Assembly: GCA_043228905.1 (NCBI GenBank)
Contig: JBHGNT010000007.1
Coordinates: 7,998,001-8,062,000 of the forward strand
Length of the DNA stretch: 64,000 bases
Direction of reading: 5' to 3'
Source: Azolla caroliniana
Taxonomy: Eukaryota > Plantae > Polypodiophyta
This document shows positions 1,079 to 62,220 of this stretch, in pieces. Both the position numbers and the translations under genes were made by a program. Under the pieces are notes generated by a model. That model was not told the origin of the DNA and made no database searches. It saw nothing but the letters and a program-made list of their open reading frames with translations. Positions within the stretch are counted from its first letter, which is position 1, and each line of letters starts with the position of its first letter.

Positions 1079-1708
1079 TGTCGTGAAGAAAACCGTCCAC
1101 AAGCGGAATCGGTGCACAGGAGCGTAGGAACCGGCTCTTCTCGAATGTTGTCCATAGAAGATCCTAGGCAGGTAGATTTAGTGGGTAGGAAGTAAATGGG
1201 AAAACGGCTCCTTCCTTGCCTATAAAAAGGAGGGAGACGAGAAGGGGGAGGGGATCGCGGAGAGTCGAGGAGGAAGTGTTGTCGGTTTACGTGCGAAGGC
1301 TTCTCTCTCTCTCTCTAGTTCGCAAACTCCATAGCTTCCTTCTGCGCAGGTTTCGGGAGGCTCGCGCTGCTCTGAGGAATGCCCGAGTGCTTCCGGTAGC
1401 ACCTCCAACCTGCTCCTGTCTTTCTGTGCGTTTACGAACATGCATCGGCATCTGTTCGCCGGCCTGTTCGGTTGTAACCGACTTCGTGTTTTGTTGCTTC
1501 CGTGTTCTTGTTGTTGTCCTTGTTAATACACACATACATTCGTGTCTCTCTGTGTCGTTGTCCCACTCGCGTCTTTGTGTCGAAGGGCCGTGTCCCTGTG
1601 AATCTACGTTTGCACGTAGTGGGTCTCTTGTCCTTTCTCTCTTGCTCTTCGGTACAGGACCCCTGAGGTCCCACCTCATTCCACGCATCCGCGAGGAAAA
1701 CCTCGACA
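1079..1708 (+). repeat. 5' LTR of outer Gypsy element
   Basis: Direct repeat of 17255-17884 with about 9 substitutions by eye; TATA cctataaaa at ~1219. Confidence 0.97.
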
Positions 1709-3904: not shown

Positions 3905-4449
3905 GGACACTCGGGAAAGACCCCACGACTGTACGATAGAACCGAAACCGAAGGAACCTTGTACGATAAGTAGGAAATTCTGCTTCTCCAACAACGGAGG
4001 GTGCATGATAGTCGGCATCGTCGGCCGAGAAAAGACAAGGGCGGAAGTGCGACTTCGAGCGTGCGGAGTTCTCGGCCCGGACGAGGAAATCAGCGGAGCC
4101 GTGGAGGCGGTCTCCTTCGACGACACCTTGGGAATGCTGGGGGAGGTAGCTGGAGAAGACCTTAATGAAGACCGGACGATTCCGGTATGTTCCGAACAGA
4201 TGTACAAAGTCATCGCAAACTTCAGTCGGGGGCTCGGGTCGGATCGGATGGCCCGGGTTAGCACGAAGTACAAGACTGTGGACCGGAAGGTAAGGCCCGT
4301 CGCGGCACCCTTACCGGAGGGCAGCGAGTCCCGAATCAGAGGGGTTGCATCGGACCCCAGTTTACGAGATCCGGCCTGCATAGGACACACCTTCACCGAC
4401 GGGACGCTCTAGGAGCTCAAGATCGGTGGGGGCGGGTTCCTACTACCGG
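3861..4449 (+). pseudogene. N-terminal part of outer pol, before the nested insertion
   Basis: KYKTVDRKVRPV pre-RT motif; reads GFLLP|AEENRFRRML across the insertion; stop at 4410-4412. Confidence 0.8.
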
Positions 4450-4868
4450 TGTTATTCTCTGACCGGACAAGGCCTAACACAAGGTGTCACGGAGACACTT
4501 CACCAAAGGGTGATTACGGCATAGGATTAAGATTCAACGATTACACCGACTTACGTAGGTTACACGATTAGAGTGCTTTGGTTAATTACACGCGTAAGAT
4601 ATAACAGTAAGTACAGAACGGAAATCAACACAGAAGTATAAACACCATACGCTCTATTAATTATCCGCTGCGATTACAATGGGGTCCGGGCCTTTAAATA
4701 GGTTTCCGGCCCGTAGTACAAAACGGTGCCTATCGCACCTATTCGGGATCCGTCCGGATCTGGAACGGCATACCGTTTCCAGTCCGTCCGTCCACACTAT
4801 GCTTATTTACAACCATACTTAATTAATTCCTTCACTCCGTATTTTGGACTCCTTGCCGGCCGGTAACA
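4450..4868 (-). repeat. 3' LTR of nested element
   Basis: No difference found by eye versus 13845-14263; minus-strand TATA-like cctatttaaagg. Confidence 0.96.
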
Positions 4869-4870
4869 CA

Positions 4871-4887
4871 TGGCACGCCTGTGGGAC
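4871..4887 (+). promoter_or_regulatory. PBS-like (tRNA-Arg-like) motif at the expected PPT position
   Basis: TGGCACGCCTGTGGGAC 2 nt from the LTR edge; resembles tRNA-Arg PBS TGGCACGCCCAGTGGGAC with one indel; no purine tract on the element sense strand. Confidence 0.6.
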
Positions 4888-4920
4888 AGTACCTTGTACG
4901 TCGAACCCTTCTCGGCCCCT

Positions 4921-7890
4921 TCATTGTTCACCCAACTTGTCCAAAATACTTTGTTCCAGAGTTTCCAATTGTTCTTCCGGTTGTGGTTGTTGCGACTGTG
5001 CTTGCTGCTGCTGTTGTGGTTGCGGTTGGGGCTGAGACTGCTCCGGCTGCTCTATAGGCGGCTGCTCCGTTTGTTTCTCTGACTCCGGCATCCCCGTTTG
5101 ACTGCTTCCGGTCCGGTCTCCTTCCAGTAACGGTTCCTCATCACTGAGGTTGACCGTTACTGGTTCTCGTGCTTTCTCTTCCCGGATCCGGGACCTCTCG
5201 TAGCTTTCAAACTGGATCTGCGCCTCCAGCCTGTCGTCGTCCAGCTGAGCTACAAGTTGCCGGACTTGCCCTAGTTGGTCCTCTGCCAAGGCTTGAAAGT
5301 CTTTGGCCAGCTCATCTCTTATGCCGGTGAAGTCTTCGGAAGTCAGCATATAGCAATCATCTCCCTCCTTCCGCCGGTTCTCTACGTCGGCCCGGAGCAA
5401 TTGGAGTTCCGCCGCGTTCGTGGCCCACTTGGTCCACCATTTGACGGAACCGTTGTCAATCAAGCTCTTGGTCTGGTTCAACCAGGCCCGCATGATATCC
5501 TGGATGCGACTTGCTCCCATTTGCGCTCTACTTTCCACAACTTGTCGTTCCTCCTTCAACTGCTTGATGAGATTAGCCGTATCCTCCGCCTGCTCTCTGT
5601 AGCGCGTCAGCTGCCCTTGATATGTTGTTTGCAGCCTCTGCAATACCTCCGCCGCTCTTTCTTTTTCCGCCTGCTGTTGCCTGAGGAGCTCTGTCCGAAC
5701 CTTCTCCGCCTCTTCCAACCGTCTTCTGGTTTCCGCTTGTTCCTTAGCGTATGCCGTTGCGGTCCGATCAACTGCTTGCCGGAGCTCATATGTCCGTTCC
5801 TTGTGCTCCGTTTGCAACCGTTTATACTCCCAGTGCAAGTGCTCAAATTCCTCCGTTTTTTGTTTGAGCTTGCCGTTGATCTGGCGATGGTTCCGGTCCT
5901 CCCGGTCCTTTAGCTGCCGGAGTTCCTCTTTCAGGCGCTCTACTTCTGTTTCGGCGTTTCTCCAGAGCCTGTCCTTCTCTTGCAACATTTTCTCCTTCTC
6001 CTCCTTGAGCCGGTCGTACGCTTGGTGGCCTTTTCGTAAGCTCTCCTCGGCCCAGCGTAGATTCTCAGCAGTCTTTTTGAGTTCTGCCTCCGCTGCCGTC
6101 TTCAACTCTCTTTCGCGGCTCCTCAGCGCTTCTTGGGCAGCTAGCTCATCCTTTAAGTCCGCAAGCTCTTGGGCTTGTGCCGCATTTCTCTCCGGAACGG
6201 TTTCCGTTGCCGGGGTCTGATTGCTATGTACAGGTTGATCTGACGCTTTATTCTGTACATTGCCCGGAGTCACCGGTGCTTGGACTTGTGTTGTCAAAGC
6301 CAATTGAGCCATTTCCCTTGTGACCCTGTCCAAGTCTTGTTCAAGGCTCCGGATTCTGGACCGGGCCGTCTCTAGATCTACGGTTGTGACGAGCAACCGT
6401 TCGTGGTGCGCTCTCTCCTCCGCCTCTATGTACTCGACCGCTCCGGCGATTTGCTCGCCTACCCACCGTAGCCACATGCTACTGGTGCCTTGCTGCTGTA
6501 CTGGTTGGGTCGGCTCGTTCACTGTGGAATTGTCTGGCCTGAGTGCCTGTATCTGCCGTTCTGGTTCTACTCCTTGGCCGCCGTGTGTGCTGGCTGGGCT
6601 CGCCGGCTGTTGGGTTCCAGTTCTCGCCGTCTCCAGAGCCGTTGGAATGACTTCTTGTATAGAAGTCGACAAGGCCGGTTCTATACGCACCGGTTCCGGT
6701 TCCTCCCTTGCGGTTTGCTCAGGTTGAGTTGAGGGCGTTTCTTCCTTTTGCGGGTCCGAACACTCCCCCGCTGTCCCGGCGGTCCTACTTCTTGACCGTC
6801 GTTGGAGGTGCTCTACTGGCTCCTCCGTTTCCTCTTCCTGGGTAACGGCATGTATCTGTGCCGTCAAGGGTTCCGGTTCCTTCTGTCCCGGTCGCCGTAT
6901 GGTTATCTTAACGGGTGGGACCGGTGACACCTCCTCCGGTTCTGGGAGCCGTTTCTTCCCTTTCATCGCCTTCGACGCCAGCAGCTGCTGTCGTTTGGAC
7001 GCCGGCTTCGAGGTGCTTCCTTCCGATAATCTTGGCCGCTTCTTTGGCTGAACGGTCTCGACCGGCGGCACGAGCAATGTTATCCACTGAGCTATGGCAT
7101 GCCACAGCTTCCGGCCCTCCTTGCCGTCCTTTCCTCGTACCATGTCGATTGCCGCGCACAAACCGTCTGCAATCAACACCGGCCAGTCCACCCTGATCCC
7201 TTCATAGGTGGCTATGATCATCCCTGCCCGATTTTTTGGCATGACAGGGGGTCGGGGGTACACGTGGCCGTACTCATGGAGCACTCGAGCCATCTCCCTG
7301 AATAGCAGATCTTCGCCGCCCTGCGTTCGATAGCCTTTGCCGGCTACAGAGTACTCACCGAAATGTCGGATGAGTTGCTCCGAGGTTGGGTTATCAATCT
7401 GAAAAATACCTCCCTCCGGAAGGCCTGTTAGCGCACGGATCGCTTCCTCGGTGATGACTTCTGTGTCGAGCTCCTTGATGACCCAGTCGGCTTCTTTGTG
7501 CGGTGGTGCCTCCATGATGGTCAGGAACCCATCCAGTCCGTGTTGCCTGAGCCATTTCCTGGCCGCTTCCGACAGCGTTTGTGGTTCCATGTCTGCTTCG
7601 AGGTCGAGGAAAGATGGCGAGGTAGAGTGGTGATGAGAGTGAGAGCGAGAGAGAGAGCGTTCCGAACGTGAGGGTTCTCTGAGTGCAGGTTCGCGTTTGC
7701 TAAGCTTCCACTGCCTTGGTGCTTCTGTGCTTCTTGGCTCGCGAAAAAAAAAGGTCTCCATGCGTTCTTCTTTTTCTCTGTGCGTCTTGGCGCCTTTTTC
7801 GAGCATGCGCACGTCGTGTACCAATTTAGTATTAAGTAATGTGGCGGCTCTTAAATGCCCACTACGTACCTTTTCGCTCCTTGCTTTCAC
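4921..7890 (-). CDS. Intact accessory ORF of nested retrotransposon: N-terminal globular domain, Pro/Glu-rich linker, long coiled coil, Gln-rich tail (likely ATG at 7590)
   Basis: 989-aa open frame between integrase and 3' LTR, same sense as pol; ITEEAIRALTGLP...VDWP resembles plant retrotransposon accessory proteins. Confidence 0.75.
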   Translation of the reverse strand: MKARSEKVRSGHLRAATLLNTKLVHDVRMLEKGAKTHREKEERMETFFFREPRSTEAPRQWKLSKREPALREPSRSERSLSRSHSHHHSTSPSFLDLEADMEPQTLSEAARKWLRQHGLDGFLTIMEAPPHKEADWVIKELDTEVITEEAIRALTGLPEGGIFQIDNPTSEQLIRHFGEYSVAGKGYRTQGGEDLLFREMARVLHEYGHVYPRPPVMPKNRAGMIIATYEGIRVDWPVLIADGLCAAIDMVRGKDGKEGRKLWHAIAQWITLLVPPVETVQPKKRPRLSEGSTSKPASKRQQLLASKAMKGKKRLPEPEEVSPVPPVKITIRRPGQKEPEPLTAQIHAVTQEEETEEPVEHLQRRSRSRTAGTAGECSDPQKEETPSTQPEQTAREEPEPVRIEPALSTSIQEVIPTALETARTGTQQPASPASTHGGQGVEPERQIQALRPDNSTVNEPTQPVQQQGTSSMWLRWVGEQIAGAVEYIEAEERAHHERLLVTTVDLETARSRIRSLEQDLDRVTREMAQLALTTQVQAPVTPGNVQNKASDQPVHSNQTPATETVPERNAAQAQELADLKDELAAQEALRSRERELKTAAEAELKKTAENLRWAEESLRKGHQAYDRLKEEKEKMLQEKDRLWRNAETEVERLKEELRQLKDREDRNHRQINGKLKQKTEEFEHLHWEYKRLQTEHKERTYELRQAVDRTATAYAKEQAETRRRLEEAEKVRTELLRQQQAEKERAAEVLQRLQTTYQGQLTRYREQAEDTANLIKQLKEERQVVESRAQMGASRIQDIMRAWLNQTKSLIDNGSVKWWTKWATNAAELQLLRADVENRRKEGDDCYMLTSEDFTGIRDELAKDFQALAEDQLGQVRQLVAQLDDDRLEAQIQFESYERSRIREEKAREPVTVNLSDEEPLLEGDRTGSSQTGMPESEKQTEQPPIEQPEQSQPQPQPQQQQQAQSQQPQPEEQLETLEQSILDKLGEQ

Positions 7891-7976
7891 GTCCGTTCAT
7901 ACCTCGATTTTTAATGATTTTTTTTTTAATTTTTTAATTTTTTTTTCTTTTCTCTTTTTAATGACGGTATGTGATC

Positions 7977-10900
7977 TTACACATCCGTAGGTCCCTTTGG
8001 ACCCTTACCGTTTTCCTTACGGGTTGCCGTGTCTTCCTTCGCCTCTGCTACGGGTTCCCCGTCGTCTTTTTCTTCCATCCGTACCGTTCCCGGTATAGTG
8101 CCGGTGGGCTGCATAAACGGGTTACTTGGCATCGGTCCTTTATAGGGCTTTAGTCTAAATCCGTTGACCCACTTGCCTAGCACTTCACCGGCAAGTGTCC
8201 CTAACTGATAGGACCCGTTGTATTCCCGTGTCAGCCAATACGGGCATGTCCATCTAAACCGGAGTTTACCCGGCATCTTGCCCATCCTCATTTGGAATAC
8301 TAGCATCGGCTTTCCGATTTCGAACATCTTCTCATTACCTTTCCGGTGACGGTCAACGAATGCTTTCCGTCGTCGTTGCTCCAGTTCCATGTGTAGGATG
8401 TTGGCCAGCCGTTGCTCCTCCAATTCGCATAGTGCTGCTAGCCGCATTTCCTCCGACTCCTTTTCATTCAGTCGTTCCCGTAGTTGGATCCGTAAGCTTG
8501 GTACCTGAAATTCCACCGGCATGACCGCCTCTAAGCCGAACGCTAACCGGAACGGCGTTGTCCGGATACTTGTTTTGTATGCCGTTCGGTACGCCCATAG
8601 CGCGCTATGGAGCTTTGTATCCCAGTCCGTTCGGTTTTCATTGACGATTTTGCGGAGAATGTTCTGGAGCGTTTTGTTGGTTGACTCTGCTAACCCGTTC
8701 GCTTGTGGGTAGTACGGTGTGCTCCGTTTATGGACCACGGCATAGAACGTTGTTAAGCTTTCAACTACCTGGCCGAGGAAGTGCCCTCCTTGGTCGCTGA
8801 TTAATTCAATCGGACATCCATATCGGCACCAAATGTTCTCGTACAGGAATTTTGCTGTGGATGACGCGATGTTGTCTCTCAAGGCCTTAGCCTCCACCCA
8901 TTTAGTGCAATAATCTGTTGCCACGATGACATAACGATTACCCGTTCTCATTGCCGGTGGCTTGAACGGTCCGACAAAATCCAACCCCCACTTCTGGAAT
9001 GGCTCTAGTGGAAGTACCGGTTGGTGTGGCATCCGTGCTTGCTCCGTAGGCTGGCCCATTCATTGGCATAGGTCACATTCCTTAGCGTACTTGACGGCGT
9101 CTTTTAACGTCGTGGGCCACCATAAGCTGCTCTGCCATACTTTCCTTGTCGTCGCTTCCCCGGCATAGTGTCCTCCGGCAACCCCACAGTGTGCTTCTCG
9201 TAAGATGACTTGTTTCTCGTCACTACGGACTGCCCGTCTCCATATTCCATCCGCTCCCTTGTGGTAGAGAGTGTCCCGTAACAGACAGAAATTGCGGCTC
9301 TGCACTGCCAGTCGTTTCCTCTCGTCCCGGTTCATTTCCTCCGGTGGCAGGCCTGTGCTTAGGAACTGGTGCATGTTTGTCAGCCACCTATCTTCTGATG
9401 CCACCGTGTCGTCCGCTGCCGTTTCCGGGGTGATACGGAATAACTCTGCGTCCGGGAATTCATCCGATACTCCGTTGCCTGATTCTCCGGACTCTAACCG
9501 GCTCAGGTAGTCTGCTACGGCATGCTGGATACCGGGCCGGTGGAAGATCTCGAATTCAAACTCCTGCAACAGCAAGGTCCAACGGGCCAACTTACCGGTC
9601 AGGGACGCCTTGGACACTAAGTACAGGAGCGCCGAGTGATCCACATGAAAGGAGAACTTCCTTCCCAATAGGTAATGACGAAACTTTGTGACACTTTAGA
9701 TCCGTCGTCGAATAGTTCTTCTCCGCTTGGGACAGCTTCCGGCTGGCGTAATATACCGGCCGGTACCATTTTGGCTCCGTCAGTTGCATTAAGGCGCTGC
9801 CGATAGCGATGTCGGAAGCGTCAACGAACACATGAAATTCCTTGCTCCAATCTGGAGGCTGCACGACGGGTGCTTGCGACAAAAGTACCTTCAGGGCATT
9901 CTATGCCTTATCCTCTGTATCCGTCCATTGGAACGGTGTCCGATGTACCGCGGTGTGTAATGGTGTAGCCAAGTCAGCCAAGTGACGGAGCATCCGGCTG
10001 TGCCACCGGATCTGTCCTAAGAATCGGCTTAGTGCTTTGGCCGTTTTCGGCGCCGGTGCCCCTAGTATCGCGTTTACTTTGTCCGGGTCGACCGCAATGC
10101 CCTCCTTACTTACAATGTGTCCCAGTAAGATTCCACTTGAAACCCCAAAGATGCATTTTGCTGGGTTTAAGCTTAGTCGGTATAACCTACACTTTTCAAG
10201 GCATAACCGTAGGTGCTGCAAATGGTCTTTTCCCCGGCTATAGACTGCAAAATCATCCAGGAAAACCTGCATGAAGGCAGGAATGTATTCGCCGAAGATC
10301 TCCATGATGATTTGCTGGAACGTTGCTGGTGCCGTTTTTAGGCCGAACATCATTACTTCGGCCACAAACACCCCCCATTCGGTGACGAACGCTGTCTTCT
10401 CCTGGTCGTCAGGGTGCATCCGGATTTGATTGTATCCGCTGAACCCGTCTAAAAAACTATAAACTTCATGGCCGGCGACGGCATCCAGTACTCCATCCGT
10501 GAACGGAAGAGGGAATGCATCCGTAATTGTGGCTGCATTTAGTTTCCTGTAATCTACACACACGCGGATTTTACCGTTCTTCTTTGGGACGACGACGATG
10601 GGGCTCAGCCACATCGCTTTCTTTACCGGCCGGATGAAGCCCACTCTTAGGAGTTTGTCGATTTCCTCCTTCACTTTGGCGGCGTAGTTGGGGTTCATTC
10701 GGTAACGTCTTTGTGCCACTGGTTTCGCGTCCTTGCCTAAGTGGATCTGATGCTGATATAATTGAGGGTCCAACCCTTGCATGTCTTCGTATGACCATGC
10801 GAATACGTCGCGAAACTCCGTGAGAAGTTTGATCATCGCCGCTTTATCTTCCGGCTTCATTTCTTTGGCGATGTGTACCGGCTTTGATTCGTCCTTGCTT

Positions 10901-13791
10901 CCTAGGTTCACTTCGTCGAGCTGGGATGTTTTTACCCGTTGGGAAACGGCCATTTCCCGTTCCAATGCTTCCTGTGCTTGCCGTAATTCCCGAATCGAAT
11001 CTTTGTCTGGTTCGGCTTCGGTTTCGTCCCGCTGTGGCAAGTATGGCGCTACGGCTTCAGCTACGTCAATCTCGAAGAGTGGTACGATCTTCGGGTGTTC
11101 CTCCAAGTACTGGGCTTCTTCGTCGTTTGCCAACCCTTCAAGCATGTTCACACATTCCGCATACAGCGGTGTGCATTCCTTACCGTTGCTCGTCCGTGGT
11201 TGTGTCGGTACCCAGACCTTGGCTTTTCCGCGCCGGAAGGTAATCATATTTTTCCGCCAATTTTGCTTGATGTGTGCTGTTTTCAACCATGGTCTGCCCA
11301 GCAACAGTGGGTACGCGCCTTGCGCCTGTAGCTGCAGCACGACAGCCGAGATGTGAAATGTGTGACCTCCTATGGTGACTTCCAATTTCCGTATTAAGCC
11401 CGTCGGCCGTACAGAGCTCGTATCCGCCATTCGTAGCCAGAACGGACATGGCTCCCATTCATGTATACCCAAGGCATCACACGTGCGGAGGCTTATTACG
11501 TTCACCCCGGAACCTCCATCGATTACTGTGCCGGGAAGTTCGTGCCCTTTGACAAAAGCTGTAATCACCGGACTACTAGTGTCCACCACCGTCGGTCCCT
11601 CCTCCGGATTCGAGAAGAGGACTGGTGCCGGTGGGGTTATACCGTCTGTCATGACCGTTTTTAGTCCTTCCGTAAATCGCGGCACGAGCTGCAAGAGTCT
11701 TCCTAATGGCAACGTGATCTGACATTCTTGCAGTGCTTGCCATGTCTCGTTTTCTGGGTGGCTACCGCCGGCACTCCCTATGGTATTCGCCTTTTGTCGT
11801 TCCGCGTCTGCGACGTTCCTTTCATTGGCTTCCTTCACCCATTCCGTCACCTGTTTTCGTATGGCCTCTTGTGTTTCCCACTCTTTGGCCATGCCTTTCG
11901 ACCGTGTGGTTACTTGCTGTAAATTCGCCACTTCCGGAACCACCATATTAACTGCTGGTCGTTTATCGTAGCTCTTTGCCGGGCACTGGTTACTGTAGTG
12001 GCCTTCCTGCCTGCAGTAATAGCAGTACTCTTTACGGGTATTGCTGGATTCAGCATTGCTGGTATCCGGAGTCGGTCCCGTAGTGAGTGGTGCGTTCTGT
12101 GCCGGTTGACTCCTTGGGGTTCCATGTTCCGGGTCCCTAGTGTGACCACCTTTCTTGAAATTACGTTTCTTATTATTCTTATTTTTATTTCGGTAGTCCG
12201 GTCGTGGTGGATCGTAAAATCGGCCGTAGTCCTCCTGGTGCCTTCGGTAACCAGGGGAATGGTCTCTGTCGTATTGCTCGTGTCGTCTGTTGGACTCCCG
12301 ATAACGGTCCGATCGCTCATACCGGTCGTAGTTATCATGCCGATTCCCGTACCGGCCATCATTCTCTTGTCTGTCTCCGTACCGGACATCCTGTGCCGGT
12401 CGGTACCGGTTCATTCTTTGCCAACGATCGTCATCTTCGTCTCGGCTGCTTCTTGGCTCGATCCGTCGGACGGGTGGTGCTTGTCAGTTTAACAGGTTAT
12501 ACTCGCACTGGTCCGTTGTATGACTCTTGGATTGACAAATCACACTCTGGGTTTGCATGGTGCACTCCACTGCCGAGTGTCCGGCATTCAAGCAGATTGT
12601 GCATTGAATTGTCTGCCGGAACCGGAGATCTTCATCTGTGGGTAACGCTCGTTGCAGTGCTCCCAGTGTAAGCCATGAGCTTGACTTTTCCATTTCTCTG
12701 ACCCGGTCAATGACCTGGTCAATGGTGCTTCCTCGAAAGTCGATCACCGTACACACCGTGCGTAACGGTTCCCGGAGTGCGTTTAAAAATATCGTCCGTA
12801 ATTCCTCCTCCGGGGGTGCACGGGCAAGCTGGCTATGCATTCGTTGGAAACGGATGACGAATTGGGGAATGCTTTCCCCTGCCTCCTGTCGGATCGTATA
12901 AAACAGGCCCACCATTGTCGTCTGGTCGACCTCCTTGTGGAAAAAATGCAAGAATTTTGCTTTTAATTCTGCAAAGGTTGTGATGGTCGCCGGGTCCTGC
13001 GTCCGCCGCCATCGTGTCGCTGGTCCTTCCAACGTGACCCCGAATTCCGCTATCTTCGAGCGTTCTTCTTCCTCCGGTGTCATTCGCTGGGACGTGTGAT
13101 TTGCTTCCCATGTCTGCTCGAAGGCATGAACATGCGCTTCCGCGTCCGGATCATCGCGATACTTTGAGTATTGGAACGGCATGTCGTCGTCCAGTATTAG
13201 GCCGCGGTTTAGTGGCGTTTGTTGATATCTTTTCGGTTCTCTCTCCGGTTCCACTTCCGGTTCTTTTGCCGGTGCTTTTTCTGGTTCCTCTTCCGGTTCC
13301 TTCACCGGCTCTTTCGTTGGTGTCGGTGGCTTTGCTTCTTCCACTTCCGGTGTTGGTGGGTTGACGGCTTCCGTTTGCGGTTCCGGATAGCCCTGGTCGA
13401 GCGGTTCCGGTTCTGGAGTCGGGACGGTATCCGACCCGTCGTCCTCCGGGCCGCCGGGGGTATCGTTGCTGCTCCGGTAGTTCGTGTGCACGCTGTATCC
13501 CCCTTCGGAATCCGATTCGTAGGCTGAAAAGGCTTCTGCCTCGTTCTCTCCGCTTGCCAGCGCCTCGAGGAGGCGTTCGGTTTCCCGGAGACTACTTAGA
13601 CTGCTTCCGCCGTCCTGGTCGCGAGTTTGCTGTAACCGAAGAGATTCCTCCGCGACTCTTCGGATCTCGTTGGAGAACGAACGATCCGAGCGAATTTCCT
13701 GCGCTGCTTGCTGGAAAGTCTCACGCCGTCTTTGCCGTTCGGCGAGGCGTCGAGCTCGGTCTGTAACCAGGTCGTGCGTTGGTCTCGTCAT
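7977..13791 (-). pseudogene. gag-pol of nested element (three Zn-knuckle-like motifs, PR, RT, RNase H, integrase), disrupted
   Basis: PR VIDGGSGVN; RT FLDGFSGYNQI...VFLDDF; RH FVDASDIAIG; INT KWGLDFVGP...YYPQANGLAE; in-frame stops at 12484, 9901, 9060 and a small deletion near 9700. Confidence 0.93.
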
Positions 13792-13828
13792 CCATTAAGC
13801 CGTCGTTCGCTGCGAGAAAGCAGGAATC

Positions 13829-13838
13829 GTGGTCGCCA
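13829..13838 (-). promoter_or_regulatory. Primer binding site of nested element (tRNA-Arg-like)
   Basis: Minus strand: LTR end, CAGTTT, TGGCGACCAC; about 10-nt complement of a tRNA-Arg(UCG)-type 3' end as recalled. Confidence 0.6.
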
Positions 13839-13844
13839 AAACTG

Positions 13845-14263
13845 TGTTATTCTCTGACCGGACAAGGCCTAACACAAGGTGTCACGGAGACACTTCACCA
13901 AAGGGTGATTACGGCATAGGATTAAGATTCAACGATTACACCGACTTACGTAGGTTACACGATTAGAGTGCTTTGGTTAATTACACGCGTAAGATATAAC
14001 AGTAAGTACAGAACGGAAATCAACACAGAAGTATAAACACCATACGCTCTATTAATTATCCGCTGCGATTACAATGGGGTCCGGGCCTTTAAATAGGTTT
14101 CCGGCCCGTAGTACAAAACGGTGCCTATCGCACCTATTCGGGATCCGTCCGGATCTGGAACGGCATACCGTTTCCAGTCCGTCCGTCCACACTATGCTTA
14201 TTTACAACCATACTTAATTAATTCCTTCACTCCGTATTTTGGACTCCTTGCCGGCCGGTAACA
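13845..14263 (-). repeat. 5' LTR of nested element
   Basis: Direct repeat of 4450-4868. Confidence 0.96.
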
Positions 14264-14268
14264 ACCGG

Positions 14269-17254: not shown

Positions 17255-17884
17255 TGTCGTGAAGAAAACCGTCCACAAGCGGAATCGGTGCACAGGAGCG
17301 TAGGAACCGGCTCTTCTCGAATGTTGTCCATAGAAGATCCTAGGCAGGTAGATTTAGTGGGTAGGAAGTAAAGGGGAAAACGGCTCCTTCCTTGCCTATA
17401 AAAAGGAGGGAGACGAGAAGGGGGAGGGGATCGCGGAGAGTCGAGGAGGAAGTGCTGTCGGTTTACGTGTGAAGGCTTCTCTCTCTCTCTCTAGTTCGCA
17501 AACTCCATAGCTTCCTTCTGCGCAGGTTTCGGGAGGCTCGCGCTGCTCTGAGGAATGCCCGAGTGCTTCCGGCAGCACCTCCAACCTGCTCCTGTCTTTT
17601 TGTGCGTTTACGAACAGGCATCGGCATCTGTTCGCCGGCCTGTTCGGTTGTAACCGACTTCGTGTTTTGTTGCTTCCGTGTTCTTGTTGTTGTCCTTGTT
17701 AATACACACATACATTCGTGTCTCTCTGTGTCGTTGTCCCACTCGCGTCTTTGTGTCAAAGGGCCGTGTCCCTGTGAATCTACGTTCGCACGTAGTGGGT
17801 CTCTTGTCCTTTCTCTCTTGCTCTTCGGTACAGGACCCCTGAGGTCCCGCCTCATTCCACGCATCCGCGAGGAAAACCTCGACA
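17255..17884 (+). repeat. 3' LTR of outer Gypsy element
   Basis: Direct repeat of 1079-1708, followed by ACGT. Confidence 0.97.
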
Positions 17885-22408: not shown

Positions 22409-22631
22409 CCCCGCCATTTGTTGACGCTTCCACTCCCCTTCTCCTTCTCCTGCTTCTCCTTCTTCTTTTGCTGCCAGACTGCCTGATCAGAGATCAGAGA
22501 AGAGATCAGAGATCAGATCAGAGAGAGAGAGAGAGAGAGAGCAGCATTCGCTCTTCACTTATCTCTCTCTGCTCCCATTCCCCTCCTCTTACCGAGGCGA
22601 GTCTCCGGTTCTTCCTTCTTCACCTCCATCC

Positions 22632-32065
<9,434 letters not shown>

Positions 32066-49060: not shown

Positions 49061-50364
49061 CCCAGATTCCAAATGTTTCTCCCCCAGAAGTCCCACTAGA
49101 AAACTATCGACATTAATGGTCCTGTCATGGGTAAACTCTCAAGGACACTTCCTTCTCTACTTACTGTGTAACTCAAGAGATCCAAGGCTCTTGTATTGCA
49201 GTATAGTAGCATTTGCAAAAAAGACTTGTCACATGTAATAAATTAGCGCTGAGGGCTAAACATGGGGATTAATTATGATTAATGAAACAATATTTAAATT
49301 GTAACTAAGTCTTGGGCTAGGCCATTGGAAAACCAAAGCAACCATTTATTTATTGGAAATTCAGAATATATGTGGTTGGGAACTATGACAAGTCATGATT
49401 TAAAGAACCCGTTGAAGATTTCATACCCAATCTATGTCAATAGGTGTGTGTCACTATTCTTTGAAGAATCTTTCTAAACCAACCTACACCCATTTCGCTT
49501 TTTTCCATTTTTCTATATATAGCAGTATATTATACCCACAAAAAGGATGCATAAAAGTGGCATTGGCACATGACTAGGGCATTATGCTCCATTTTGCCCT
49601 CCACCTAGAAAAAAGAAATTGTCTCATAAACAATGGACTCTCTCTCTCTCTTATATTTCTTTTCTTTTCATATTATTTACTTTTATATTTACAGTGTAAT
49701 ATTTAGTTTATTTTGATTTGTTCTCAAAGACGAGACAACACTTACGATGTAATCTCTTATTTGGTGTTATAGGCCATTTTGGCCTCTTAAAAGATGTTAA
49801 TATATCTTTCTTTCTTTCTTTTCTATAGGAACCAGGTTCGATCCTCGCCATGGGCTAGGCCTATCTAAGATTGCAATTGGTCTCTTGTGGACGTTATATA
49901 TATATATATATATATATATGATGTCATTTGCATATATTGCAGTTAAGAAAACGTTCCCCACCATTGTCATCCATTGTACCCGCCTCCTACAATATAGCCA
50001 AACGTTTATTAGGTGCACACATATGTTTCAACAAAACTAACCTCCCTGCATGATTCTCCATGGACCCTCAAAACAAATGAGAACAAGGAATTGTGGCATG
50101 GCCAATGGGGGTGTCTCTCTCTATGTAGCCCAATTAGGTTTTTAATTGATGACTTTTTAATGTTATTGGCAAAATATTCTAACCAATTGAGCTTGCACGC
50201 TCTCTCTAATTGTGACTTTTCTCCTAGGTTGATTTTGGCCTCTACATGTTTTTCTTTCTCTCACTCCCCTCCACGCCTTCGAATAATGATGGCAAAAAAA
50301 TTGTGCCGCTACTAAAAAAAAAGGTTATTTCTACCATTGATCAACTTTTGTATCAGCCTACCAA

Positions 50365-51792
50365 ATGATAAACACTTCGACCAATCTAAAACAGTTAGTT
50401 CGCAAGAGGCGAGTTAAAGCAAAACCAGCCATGGAGATGAAACACTCATCACCCTCATCCTTTGTTATCGAATCAAAAGATCTTGAAGATATGCAAGCCA
50501 AATCAGCCATGGAGATGAAACTCTCATCGCCCTCATCCTTTGTTATCGAATCAAAAGATCTGGAAGATATGCAAACCAAATCAGGGCAATCAATGGACAC
50601 CTTATTAAACAATTTGGTGTGGCCGACAAGAACCCTAGCGCGACCCCTTATCTCTGGTTTCTTCGTAGGAGCGGTCGCCTTGGGTGCGAGTGGACGTGTC
50701 TTTCGAGGTGTAAACCTCGAGTTCCCGGGCCTCCCACTTAATAACTCTGTTCACGCGGAGCAATTTCTTGTCATCAACGCTGCCCAACATGGCGAACAAC
50801 AACTTAGGGTTTTGGCTGTATCGGCCGCCCCTTGTGGACACTGTCGACAATTCCTTCAAGAACTTAGGGGAGCCCCTGAGCTTCGTATCCTAATTGCTGA
50901 TGATCCCGTCCCCGCCCGTGTGAATAACCCTCAGCCACAAACACTTGCTTATTTCTTGCCGCATCGATTTGGACCTAGTGATGTTCTTGAAGGCGATTTC
51001 CCTCTTCTTCTCGAGCCGCATGCAAATGGGTTGAAAATTGCATGCCATGATGATGGTGATGGTGATGCTCAAGATGATACCCATGAGAATGGGGAATTTT
51101 TGAGTGGGGACAAACCTGAATGCCACTATCCAAGAGTTGATCCTACCGGTGATCTTCTTGTTGATAATGCTACCCACGAGAAGGGACATCTAATGAGTGT
51201 GAACAGACCCACCGAATTTGAAGAAGATCCTAGAGATTCTACCCTCCATGTGGATGCCTCCAATGGATCTCATGTTGGCGATGGTGTTCCTTGTGATGGG
51301 TCTCATGCAGATTATACCCATCACAACGAACAACTCATGAGGCCAAATAAATGTTCCGAAGGAACTTCTTTCGATAATGCTAGGAATGACCTTCAAACCC
51401 ATCATAATTCCCATGATAAGGAACAAATCACAACGGCGAATGAACCCAAACTCAAAGACCTAAGGAATGCAGCCCTCAATGCTGCAAATGGATCTCATGC
51501 TCCTTATACGAATTCACCGGCGGGGGTCGCCCTCCTCACCAAGCACGGAAAGATATATAGTGGGTCTTATGTGGAATCTGTGGCTTATAATCCTGGTCTG
51601 CCCCCTCTGCAATCCGCCTTGGTGGCTTTTGTTGCAAGAGATGGAGGTAGTTATGAAGATCTCGAACATGCTATCCTTGTCGAGAAGAAAGAAGCCCCGG
51701 TGCAGTTCTTTGAAATGGTTGAGCTTTTGCTCAAGAAGATCTCTCCCAAATGCAAACTTCATGTCTATCATGCAACAGTGAGTAGAACTTAA
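50365..51792 (+). CDS. CDA: Cytidine deaminase (two-domain plant/E. coli cdd type), intronless; start may be 50431 or 50509
   Basis: GVNLEF, HAEQF and PCGHCRQF zinc motifs; C-terminal SHAPY...GSYVESVAYNPGLPPLQ; uninterrupted 475-aa ORF. Confidence 0.92.
   Translation: MINTSTNLKQLVRKRRVKAKPAMEMKHSSPSSFVIESKDLEDMQAKSAMEMKLSSPSSFVIESKDLEDMQTKSGQSMDTLLNNLVWPTRTLARPLISGFFVGAVALGASGRVFRGVNLEFPGLPLNNSVHAEQFLVINAAQHGEQQLRVLAVSAAPCGHCRQFLQELRGAPELRILIADDPVPARVNNPQPQTLAYFLPHRFGPSDVLEGDFPLLLEPHANGLKIACHDDGDGDAQDDTHENGEFLSGDKPECHYPRVDPTGDLLVDNATHEKGHLMSVNRPTEFEEDPRDSTLHVDASNGSHVGDGVPCDGSHADYTHHNEQLMRPNKCSEGTSFDNARNDLQTHHNSHDKEQITTANEPKLKDLRNAALNAANGSHAPYTNSPAGVALLTKHGKIYSGSYVESVAYNPGLPPLQSALVAFVARDGGSYEDLEHAILVEKKEAPVQFFEMVELLLKKISPKCKLHVYHATVSRT
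50426..50583 (+). repeat. 78-bp in-frame tandem duplication including an ATG
   Basis: AMEMKxSSPSSFVIESKDLEDMQxKS twice. Confidence 0.95.
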
Positions 51793-60764: not shown

Positions 60765-62220
60765 ATGTCAGATTCATCTAGTAACCTTGAGCAAATTTTG
60801 GCGACCCTACAACAACTCAAACATGAGAATGCAAACTTGCAAAACTCTGTCTAAGAACTTTAGGCGGCCACAACGGTCATATCTCACCCAATTGTTGACT
60901 TTTCTGCCATAGACCCCAATGTCAACTTGGTAGATAAATTCAATGGAACAAGGTCATAGTTAAGAGGCACCATCAACTAGATTCGCCTTATTATTTGCCT
61001 TCAACCTCGACGTTATTTTGATGACTTTTGACGAGTTGGGCTCATCGACACGTTGCTAATAGGACAAGCCCAAGCTTGGTTTGCTCCTCTGGTGGAGACC
61101 TCTTCACCCCTCTTGACTTACTTCCAAGCATTTCTTACCGAATTTGAGGCAACTTTTGAGGAGACCGACAAACGACGAGCCACACTCAACAAACTATATG
61201 TGTTACAACAAGGAGAACATGCAGCATCAATCTATGCATCTAAATTTTGTCAACTCACATGCGATGTCGATTGGGACGAACAAGCCCTCCTCGATCAATT
61301 CCATCAAGGATTACAACGTGAGATAAAAAATCTTTTGCTTAACTTTCTTGAGCCCACATCTTTAAATGAGGCTAAGCTATGCACTGCGACAACCGTCTCT
61401 TTGAGTTCCGGCAAGAGGAACGTTGTCGTGAAGAAAACCGTCCACAAGCGGAATCGGTGCACCGGAGCGTAGGAACCGGCTCTTCATGCACGTACGTCTT
61501 ATGTTGTACAAAGAGAGAATTAGGTACATAGAAGATCCTAGGTAGGTAGATTCGGTAGGTAGGAAGTTAATGGAAAATGGCTCCTTTCTTGCCTATAAAA
61601 GGAGGGAGACAGGGAAGAGGAAAGGGATCGCGGTTAGAGAGGACGAAGTGTTATCGGGTTGTCGGCGGAAGGCTTCTCTCTCTTCCATACTCCGTAGCTT
61701 CTTTCGGTGCAGGTTTCGGGAGGCTCGCGCTGCTCTAAGGAATGCCCGAGTGCTTCCAGCAGCACCTCCAACCTACTCCTTTCCTTCTGAGCGTTTACGA
61801 ACAGGCATCGACATCTGTTCGCCGACCTGTTCGGTTGTAACCGACTTCGTGCTTCTTGTTGTTTGTCCTTGTTAATATATATAAACGTACATTCGTGTCT
61901 CTCTGCGTCGGTGTCCCACTCGCGTCTTTGTGTCGAAGGGTCGTGCCCCCTGTGAATCTACGCCCACACGTAGTGGGTCCCTTCCCTTCTCCTTTGTCTC
62001 TTGCTCTTCGGTACAAGACCCCCGAGGCCCCGCCTCATTCCACGCATCCGCGAGGAAAACCTCGACAACGTCCTCATCGAATCCATCCACCTTGGTTAGC
62101 CACTACACGAAATCACCTACCGTGGTTGACGGCCCCAACTCCCATGTCATCCTCCACTTCATCTTCAACTCCCGCTATAGATTCTAGCTCCCCAATGGAG
62201 ATTGATCGAATTTGCTACTA
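60765..62220 (+). pseudogene. Decayed Ty3/Gypsy chromovirus-type (Tcn1/PEG10-like) gag, interrupted by a solo LTR
   Basis: DKFNGTRS, LLIGQAQAWF, LQQG..ASIYASKF, WDEQAL..QF..GL, PMEID. Confidence 0.78.
61424..62067 (+). repeat. Solo LTR of the same family as the outer Gypsy element, TSD ACGT
   Basis: TGTCGTGAAGAAAACC...GGAAAACCTCGACA, a diverged copy of 1079-1708; ACGT at 61420-61423 and 62068-62071. Confidence 0.95.

What the first reader, a model, noticed from the sequence alone, without database searches (positions are those of the whole stretch)
4861..13850. LTR retrotransposon with tRNA-PBS-like motifs at both inner LTR edges and no PPT: possible tRNA priming of both DNA strands
Seen: after the 5' LTR the sense (minus) strand reads TAACA-CAGTTT-TGGCGACCAC, a normal PBS. 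Where the PPT should be there is no purine run. The opposite strand there reads TAACA-CA-TGGCACGCCTGTGGGAC (4871-4887), so the element RNA carries GUCCCACAGGCGUGCCA, a tRNA-3'-end mimic ending in CCA, 2 nt before U3. Known: LTR elements prime minus-strand DNA with a tRNA and plus-strand DNA with an RNase-H-resistant PPT; TGGCACGCCCAGTGGGAC is a tRNA-Arg-type PBS (recalled). Inference: a tRNA annealed to minus-strand cDNA at this motif would extend into U3 with PPT geometry and a 2-nt overhang. This could be second-strand priming by a second tRNA or by a tRNA-mimic fragment. The identical LTRs and perfect TSD show that the configuration transposed recently. I do not know a described case, but cannot check the literature.
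Basis: partly seen in the sequence, partly recalled or inferred. Interest (0 to 1): 0.8.

Follow-up and report, generated by a model that had tools for sequence, protein, structure and literature searches.

The report
Retrotransposon swaps purine tract for tRNA-site
A group of plant jumping genes lacks the purine-rich patch that normally starts their second DNA strand and carries, at exactly that spot, a conserved copy of a tRNA's tail, so a second host tRNA likely primes that strand, a route we did not find described.

Summary
Confirmed and larger than reported. A 9.8-kb Ty3/gypsy element (identical 419-bp LTRs, 5-bp TSD) has a tRNA-Arg(UCG) PBS at its 5' end and no polypurine tract. Two bases before U3 sits a 38-nt cassette matching plant tRNA-Arg(UCU) in two parts: the 3' 18 nt (17 of 18), a 13-nt insert, then 8 nt of the T arm. 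It is not private: 10 of 11 related metagenome copies that reach the LTR keep it, as a conservation island (0.86-1.0 against 0.35-0.54 around it), and a distant family (L021: no LTR similarity, different 5' tRNA) ends the same way. The LTR TATA box points along gag-pol. Best reading: tRNA-Arg(UCU) anneals to minus-strand cDNA and primes the plus strand (about 55%); main rival: the element's own tRNA-like RNA fragment is the primer (20%). Nothing biochemical is shown, host tRNAs were not available, and a tRNA:DNA hybrid should be RNase H-sensitive. Ten searches of an open-access library found no description. The scan noted the same family three times before on other pieces of this genome (unreviewed).

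The parts
4445..4449 (.). Target site duplication ACCGG, left copy
   Evidence: matches 14264-14268
4450..4868 (-). 3' LTR (419 bp, TG...CA, identical to the 5' LTR)
4869..4870 (-). 2-nt spacer between the CCA end of the cassette and U3; PPT-like geometry
   Evidence: 2 nt in all 11 metagenome copies that reach the LTR and in L021
4871..4887 (+). Complement of the 3' 18 nt of tRNA-Arg(UCU) with one base missing (17 of 18); reads as the tRNA tail ending in CCA on the element RNA
   Evidence: plant ArgTCT fragments in PMC8482286 supplement file 3; identity 0.90 across 9 relatives
4888..4900 (+). 13-nt insert with a short inverted repeat, placed at the tRNA 58/59 boundary; would loop out of a tRNA:cDNA duplex
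   Evidence: identity 0.97 across 9 relatives; hairpin weak, z -1.0; looped out in duplex model
4901..4908 (+). Complement of the tRNA T-arm stretch (positions about 51-58): second half of a bipartite site
   Evidence: 42-55 contigs per run diverge right behind 4908 in 3 of 4 runs
4921..7896 (-). Extra ORF (991 aa stop to stop) between integrase and 3' LTR; helical N-terminal domain plus coiled coil, function not assigned
   Evidence: no Pfam hit; weak Atlas leads to ATHILA/Transposase_32 clusters at 0.85; fold searches uninformative
7977..12483 (-). pol: protease region, RT, RNase H, integrase; interrupted by two stops and one frameshift; no second (archaeal-type) RNase H, no chromodomain
12484..13794 (-). 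gag; ends in a stop where relatives L009 and L015 read on into pol
13829..13838 (-). 5' PBS, 10 nt complementary to tRNA-Arg(UCG), 6 nt from the LTR
   Evidence: ArgTCG fragments in PMC8482286 supplements; same PBS, 7-nt spacer, in L001, L007, L009, L015
13845..14263 (-). 5' LTR; TATA-like box on the gag-pol strand about 170 nt from its start
14264..14268 (.). Target site duplication ACCGG, right copy

Best explanation
This Ty3/gypsy clade has no polypurine tract and carries a conserved two-part tRNA-Arg(UCU) site 2 nt before U3, which likely lets a second host tRNA anneal to the minus-strand cDNA and prime the plus strand. Steps: (1, known scheme, inferred here) tRNA-Arg(UCG) at the 5' PBS primes minus-strand DNA, which jumps to the 3' end and copies U3 and the cassette; (2, inferred) RNase H clears the RNA over the cassette; (3, complementarity shown, binding inferred) tRNA-Arg(UCU) pairs by its 3' 17-18 nt and again by its T arm, with the 13-nt insert looped out; (4, geometry shown, priming inferred) RT extends from CCA through 2 nt into U3-R-U5; (5, inferred) the tRNA is removed and integrase trims the 2 nt, giving TG...CA ends and a 5-bp TSD (shown).
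For: No purine tract and the same CCA + 2 nt + TG geometry in the window, in 10 of 11 metagenome copies that reach the LTR and in distant L021 (RT 66%, integrase 58-63%, LTRs not alignable). The cassette is a conservation island: 0.86-1.0 against 0.54 for the adjacent coding end and 0.35 for inner U3 (9 relatives); contig depth peaks over it in 4 of 4 runs and many contigs diverge right behind 4908. The 3' site stays Arg(UCU) while the 5' primer differs (Arg(UCG) here, Arg(ACG) in L021), which fits a dedicated second tRNA better than a copy of the first primer's end. The positions that vary between families (A or G at one site, C or T at another) also vary among plant ArgTCT isodecoders. The match extends to the T arm across a loop, like the bipartite PBS of Ty1 (PMC5371799), and L021 has an unrelated 8-bp hairpin at the same place (z -4.4). 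Duplex model with a phage tRNA-Arg(TCT) end as proxy: -46.2 against shuffle mean -21.0, minimum -34.3 of 500; best site on either strand of the element.
Against: No experiment and no raw reads. Host tRNAs were not available; matches are to angiosperm fragments and phage proxies. A tRNA on cDNA is an RNA:DNA hybrid, a substrate for RNase H, whereas PPT primers survive because they resist it (established knowledge; PMC5371799). The fixed one-base gap and m1A58, which cannot base-pair (PMC13191261), weaken the duplex. The window's own hairpin is not significant (z -1.0), the 13-nt insert is conserved in sequence (0.97) more than a passive loop needs, and L021 with the proxy tRNAs does not beat the best shuffles (-29.2 against minimum -32.8). 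The metagenome copies look like one family from one set of assemblies, so independent families number three, not twelve. L014 has lost most of the tRNA-end part yet is joined to an LTR.
Confidence: 0.55

Rival explanations
1. Cis mimic: the element's own RNA over the cassette survives as a fragment that RNase H cuts after CCA, as it does when it removes a tRNA primer, and this fragment primes the plus strand in place of a PPT.
For: Needs no second tRNA; same geometry. In the metagenome family the RNA can fold a T-arm-like stem. Sequence conservation of the insert (0.97) may point to protein recognition.
Against: Folding is not better than shuffles (z 0.6 to -0.7) and the stem is lost in the window copy. 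A mimic of primer removal should track the family's own 5' tRNA, but it stays Arg(UCU) while the 5' primer differs. Mixed-sequence RNA in a hybrid is not expected to resist RNase H.
Confidence: 0.2
2. The cassette is functional but not the plus-strand primer site (for example tRNA or tRNA-fragment binding on antisense RNA or cDNA, packaging or strand transfer), and the plus strand starts from an internal purine tract or random RNA fragments.
For: Thirteen purine runs of 11 nt or more lie on the coding strand, one of 22 nt in the integrase-to-extra-ORF spacer. Central PPTs exist in plant elements (PMC7197481).
Against: That tract is not kept in L001, L007 or L021. An internal primer cannot set the U3 end, yet the element has exact TG...CA ends and a 5-bp TSD, and the CCA sits a fixed 2 nt from U3 in three families.
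Confidence: 0.12
3. The genomic RNA is the + strand: the cassette is the true first-strand PBS and gag-pol is expressed antisense, or both strands serve as templates.
For: In the window family the cassette is a better PBS (17 + 8 nt, 2-nt spacer) than the 5' site (10 nt, 6-7-nt spacer). L021's LTR has TATA-like words on both strands.
Against: The TATA-like box lies on the gag-pol strand only in the window and in 4 of 4 close relatives tested. L021 has a canonical 16-nt PBS with a 2-nt spacer on the coding strand. The other end would still lack a PPT, so two tRNA sites remain.
Confidence: 0.06
4. Relic: a tRNA end was copied into an ancestor by accident and has no function.
For: RT does copy tRNA ends; decayed (L002) and deleted (L014) versions exist.
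Against: More conserved than neighbouring coding DNA, kept in a family whose LTR and extra ORF are no longer alignable, and it leaves the missing PPT unexplained.
Confidence: 0.04

Closest known systems
Canonical LTR retroelement priming (Ty3, Ty1, HIV-1): tRNA at the PBS, RNase H-resistant PPT
   Same: LTRs with TG...CA ends, TSD, gag-PR-RT-RH-INT order, 5' tRNA PBS; RT best matches Ty3 RT among solved structures (E 1e-51); the second primer site abuts U3.
   Different: No PPT; a tRNA-complementary site on the minus-strand cDNA takes its place. PMC5371799 (passages and section 2.1) and PMC13191261 (passages) give the PPT as the plus-strand primer.
Bipartite PBS of Ty1 and Ty3 (PMC5371799)
   Same: Acceptor end and T arm of a tRNA pair with two separated segments; in Ty1 the segments are split by a small loop.
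   Different: Those sites are on the genomic RNA and serve the minus-strand primer; in Ty3 the 3' segment binds the same tRNA. Here the site has the opposite polarity and matches a different tRNA from the 5' PBS.
Plant non-chromovirus Ty3/gypsy, Athila clade of the OTA superclade (PMC6317226; FIDEL, PMC2844528)
   Same: 5-bp TSD, no archaeal RNase H, no chromodomain, extra forward ORF after integrase, PBS displaced from the LTR (FIDEL: LTR ends 1531, PBS listed at 1541).
   Different: Athila use tRNA-Asp mostly (72%), have long LTRs and a PPT core; here tRNA-Arg, 419-bp LTRs, no PPT. tRNA-Arg priming is typical of Ogre and TatIII, which need the extra RNase H that is absent here.
Helenus TRIMs (PMC10886601)
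   Same: tRNA-like sequence in an LTR retroelement.
   Different: Helenus has the tRNA-like sequence inside the LTR as a promoter and keeps PBS and PPT (passages); here only the 3' part of a tRNA, outside the LTR, replacing the PPT.

Membership tests
Ty3/gypsy LTR retrotransposon | Direct LTRs with TG...CA ends and a TSD | tested here: met
Ty3/gypsy LTR retrotransposon | Domain order gag-RT-RH-INT | tested here: met
   Pfam hits in that order on the minus strand
Ty3/gypsy LTR retrotransposon | tRNA PBS after the 5' LTR | tested here: met
   10 nt complementary to plant tRNA-Arg(UCG); short and displaced by 6 nt
Ty3/gypsy LTR retrotransposon | Polypurine tract before the 3' LTR | tested here: not met
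   9-12 purines of 22, in window, 11 metagenome copies and L021; the outer element in the same window has 15 of 22 with a G-rich end
Athila (OTA) | Groups with Athila in RT/RH/INT trees | not testable with these tools
   No named Athila or Tat reference sequences could be fetched; the tree holds none
Athila (OTA) | No archaeal RNase H, no chromodomain, 5-bp TSD | tested here: met
   (domain spacing in L021's open frame)
Athila (OTA) | tRNA-Asp PBS (dominant type) | tested here: not met
   tRNA-Arg types in window and L021; types per lineage
Athila (OTA) | Extra 3' ORF of the Athila ORF-1 / env-like type | tested here: inconclusive
   Extra ORF present; no Pfam hit; Atlas rows at 0.85 only
Tat/Ogre/Retand | Additional archaeal-type RNase H | tested here: not met
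   One RNase H region, no room for a second
Phygy / Selgy | 4-bp TSD, tRNA-Trp or tRNA-Ala PBS, no extra ORF | tested here: not met
   5-bp TSD, tRNA-Arg, 991-aa extra ORF
Helenus | tRNA-like promoter inside the LTR, non-coding interior with PBS and PPT | tested here: not met
   No tRNA gene called in the window; cassette is outside the LTR; element is coding

The most novel reading that the evidence does not exclude
A whole clade of Ty3/gypsy retrotransposons of seedless plants has replaced the polypurine tract with a second, bipartite primer-binding site on the cDNA, so both DNA strands are primed by host tRNAs: the first LTR retroelements known to do without a PPT-type primer, with an RT/RNase H that must spare a tRNA:DNA hybrid.
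Probability: 0.55. Interest if true: 0.88.

Novelty: new variant of a known kind. Interest (0 to 1): 0.78.

Why it matters
PPT priming of the plus strand is treated as general for LTR retrotransposons and retroviruses. An abundant, recently mobile clade that does without it would show a second way to set the left end of the cDNA and give a direct test of how RNase H tells primers from substrates. Either of the two leading mechanisms (second tRNA, or own tRNA-like fragment) would be new. It also makes the element depend on two tRNA species, and annotation tools that score PPTs or infer strand from the best PBS would misread these families.

Tried and rejected
No whole genome is held, so copies in the host assembly and host tRNA genes could not be collected. 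No RNA holder listed among 24 runs; all laid runs were contigs, so no start, end or strand of RNA. Only the 3' junction (4400-5400) was laid. Viral contigs: no relatives by integrase, none by the bipartite pattern; 61 hits to a looser pattern plus one bacterial-genome hit had no retroelement protein nearby (0 of 62). Pattern search in four contaminated MAGs found only L021's own site as a cassette (1 of 11 matches). L022/L023 (integrase 47-48%) end before any 3' junction, so the edge of the clade is unknown. 19 tRNA loci from G002 looked bacterial; 30 viral loci gave tRNA-Arg with other acceptor ends. Self-priming from the LTR: longest complement 7 nt, rejected. Pairing of the cassette with the 5' PBS: 5 bp only, by inspection, rejected. 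Programmed read-through between gag and pol: rejected, relatives have a sense codon there. tRNA-like fold of the cassette RNA: not significant. Extra-ORF structure: low-confidence model (pLDDT 60), no informative match. Careful tree did not finish; only the quick tree is used. Paper searches listed no description of tRNA priming of the plus strand; supplements of PMC5389709 and PMC11700998 had no matching tRNA ends (four files of the latter not searched); the element table and FASTA of PMC6317226 were too large to read and could hold members of this clade.
Full report
Observation. The element spans 4450-14263 with two identical 419-bp LTRs and the TSD ACCGG. It is inserted in another Gypsy element. 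gag, RT, RNase H, integrase (Pfam) and a 991-aa extra ORF lie on the minus strand. The 5' PBS is 10 nt long and 6 nt from the LTR.

Which tRNAs. No host genome or host tRNA was available. Supplement file 3 of PMC8482286 (rows found by term search; angiosperm tRNA fragments) labels the ends: the 5' PBS is the complement of the last 10 nt of ArgTCG; the 3' motif equals the last 18 nt of an ArgTCT isodecoder with one C missing. Beyond a 13-nt insert (4888-4900) the match resumes for 8 nt (4901-4908) with the T arm. The insert falls at the 58/59 boundary, the end of a standard 18-nt PBS (PMC13191261, passages; tRNA numbering recalled). The feature is therefore a 38-nt bipartite tRNA-Arg(UCU) site with the polarity of the minus-strand cDNA. 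These alignments were made by eye. With a phage tRNA-Arg(TCT) end as proxy (L018, called by ARAGORN) and RNA:RNA energies, the predicted duplex loops out exactly the 13 nt and scores -46.2 against a mean of -21.0 and a minimum of -34.3 in 500 shuffles; for an 18-mer of a second proxy (L017, not called by ARAGORN) it is the best site on either strand of the element.

Is it private? No. Laid on 4400-5400, contigs of four runs (organism codes A, A, B, C; X1 may be the source sample) peak over 4842-4909 in 4 of 4 runs, and 55, 42 and 44 contigs run on into diverse sequence right behind 4908 in X1, X13 and X17 (none listed for X12; 481 rows not shown). None of the 40 listed differences falls in 4828-4967, but 97 were not shown. 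Three end before the ORF stop, one (L008) switches to unrelated sequence at the start of the cassette, and 11 reach the LTR: 10 carry the full-length cassette (L002 decayed) and L014 has an internal deletion; all 11 keep the 2-nt spacer and none has a PPT. In L003 and L006 the LTR is followed by unrelated flank, so it is a true 3' LTR; L001, L007, L009 and L015 are collapsed or tandem and show the same 5' PBS. Identity to the window across 9 of these loci (L004 and L014 left out): extra-ORF end 0.54, T-arm part 0.86, insert 0.97, tRNA-end part 0.90, first 20 nt of U3 0.89, inner U3 0.35. These loci probably represent one family. A diverged protein, P0213, reads through the same cassette in translation.

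A distant family. L021, plant-type DNA in a chimeric bacterial MAG contig, is a complete element with 1.64-kb LTRs (95% identical; TSD not clear), RT 66% and integrase 58-63% identical to the window, an LTR with no blastn match and an extra ORF that barely aligns. Its 5' PBS matches 16 nt of ArgACG at a 2-nt spacer. Its 3' end again has no PPT and reads as 15 nt of an ArgTCT end (14 of 15 against a listed isodecoder), CCA, 2 nt, TG, preceded by an unrelated 8-bp hairpin (z -4.4). With the phage proxies its duplex has the same two-part shape but does not beat the best shuffles. In a quick integrase tree (83 rows; 75 of 120 search hits kept for length; careful search unfinished) the window group, L021 and three Adiantum nelumboides integrases form one clade with SH-aLRT 98, so the cassette is probably ancestral to that clade and is predicted in those fern elements. 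The nearest named relatives are fern proteins at about 52%; the host is a seedless land plant by this evidence only.

Direction of transcription. A TATA-like box lies on the gag-pol strand and not on the other in the window and in 4 of 4 close relatives; L021 has candidates on both strands. With L021's canonical PBS this makes the gag-pol strand the likely genomic RNA. The A-rich purine tract between integrase and the extra ORF is not kept in L001, L007 or L021. As a control, the outer element has a G-rich tract at its 3' LTR (15 of 22 purines, though its longest run is only 5).

Mechanism. Something must set the U3 end, since the insertion has exact ends and a TSD. The only conserved feature there ends in CCA two bases from U3. 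A second tRNA on the cDNA (0.55) explains the polarity, the geometry, the T-arm segment across a loop as in Ty1's bipartite PBS (PMC5371799, section 2.1 read), the constancy of Arg(UCU) while the 5' primer differs, and variation that stays within isodecoder space. Against it: RNase H should attack a tRNA:DNA hybrid, the duplex has a gap and an unpairable m1A58, and the insert is conserved in sequence. The cis-mimic fragment (0.20) avoids a second tRNA but has no significant fold and does not track the first primer. A non-priming role (0.12), reversed polarity (0.06) and a relic (0.04) fit worse. No step of priming is shown.

Known systems and novelty. It is a Ty3/gypsy element that resembles Athila in layout but fails the tRNA-Asp and PPT features; membership could not be tested by tree (PMC6317226: passages and supplement table 5; PMC2844528: passages; PMC2864245: passages noting Athila-like RT clones in ferns). 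Helenus keeps its PPT (PMC10886601, passages). PMC7197481 (passages) describes central PPTs. Ten searches (listings seen, most papers not opened) gave no description of tRNA priming of the plus strand; the library lacks most subscription journals and Repbase reports, and the large supplements of PMC6317226 could not be read. My reading was written before I saw earlier notes; searches then showed three unreviewed notes with the same idea on other pieces of this genome and one on a fungal copy. They are not independent support.

Verdict. Real, conserved across at least three families, unexplained by the standard model; mechanism inferred. New variant of a known kind, interest 0.78.

Noticed in passing
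window 1079-1708 and 17255-17884: The outer Gypsy element has 630-bp LTRs (621 of 630 identical), a 4-bp TSD ACGT, a PBS of tRNA-Trp type (label recalled) and a G-rich PPT; these fit the Phygy description in PMC6317226. A third, more diverged copy of its LTR lies near 61419-62071.
   Followed up: partly
window 7977-13794: gag-pol of the inner element is broken at four places although its LTRs are identical, suggesting mobilisation in trans.
   Followed up: partly
window 13839-13844; L001, L007, L009, L015: The 5' PBS is displaced from the LTR by 6-7 nt that begin with CA, so both LTR ends are followed by CA; how integrase trims the longer U5 overhang is open.
   Followed up: no
L021 1-20804 (G001:C10): A complete plant-type retrotransposon and part of a second one sit in a Chloroflexia MAG contig whose first 2.8 kb encode bacterial ABC-transporter-like genes: probably a chimeric assembly. 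The TSD is ambiguous. Its extra ORF is in frame with pol (2444-aa ORF).
   Followed up: partly
L022, L023, L061 (G002): Related plant-type retrotransposon fragments contaminate a Stigonema MAG.
   Followed up: partly
window 4921-7896: The extra ORF is open over 991 codons and conserved at 50-90% in metagenome relatives, with no family or fold assigned.
   Followed up: partly
window 22425-31411 and 50341-51792: Host genes: exons resembling a CHD-type chromatin remodeller, and an ORF resembling cytidine deaminase (both by inspection translations).
   Followed up: no
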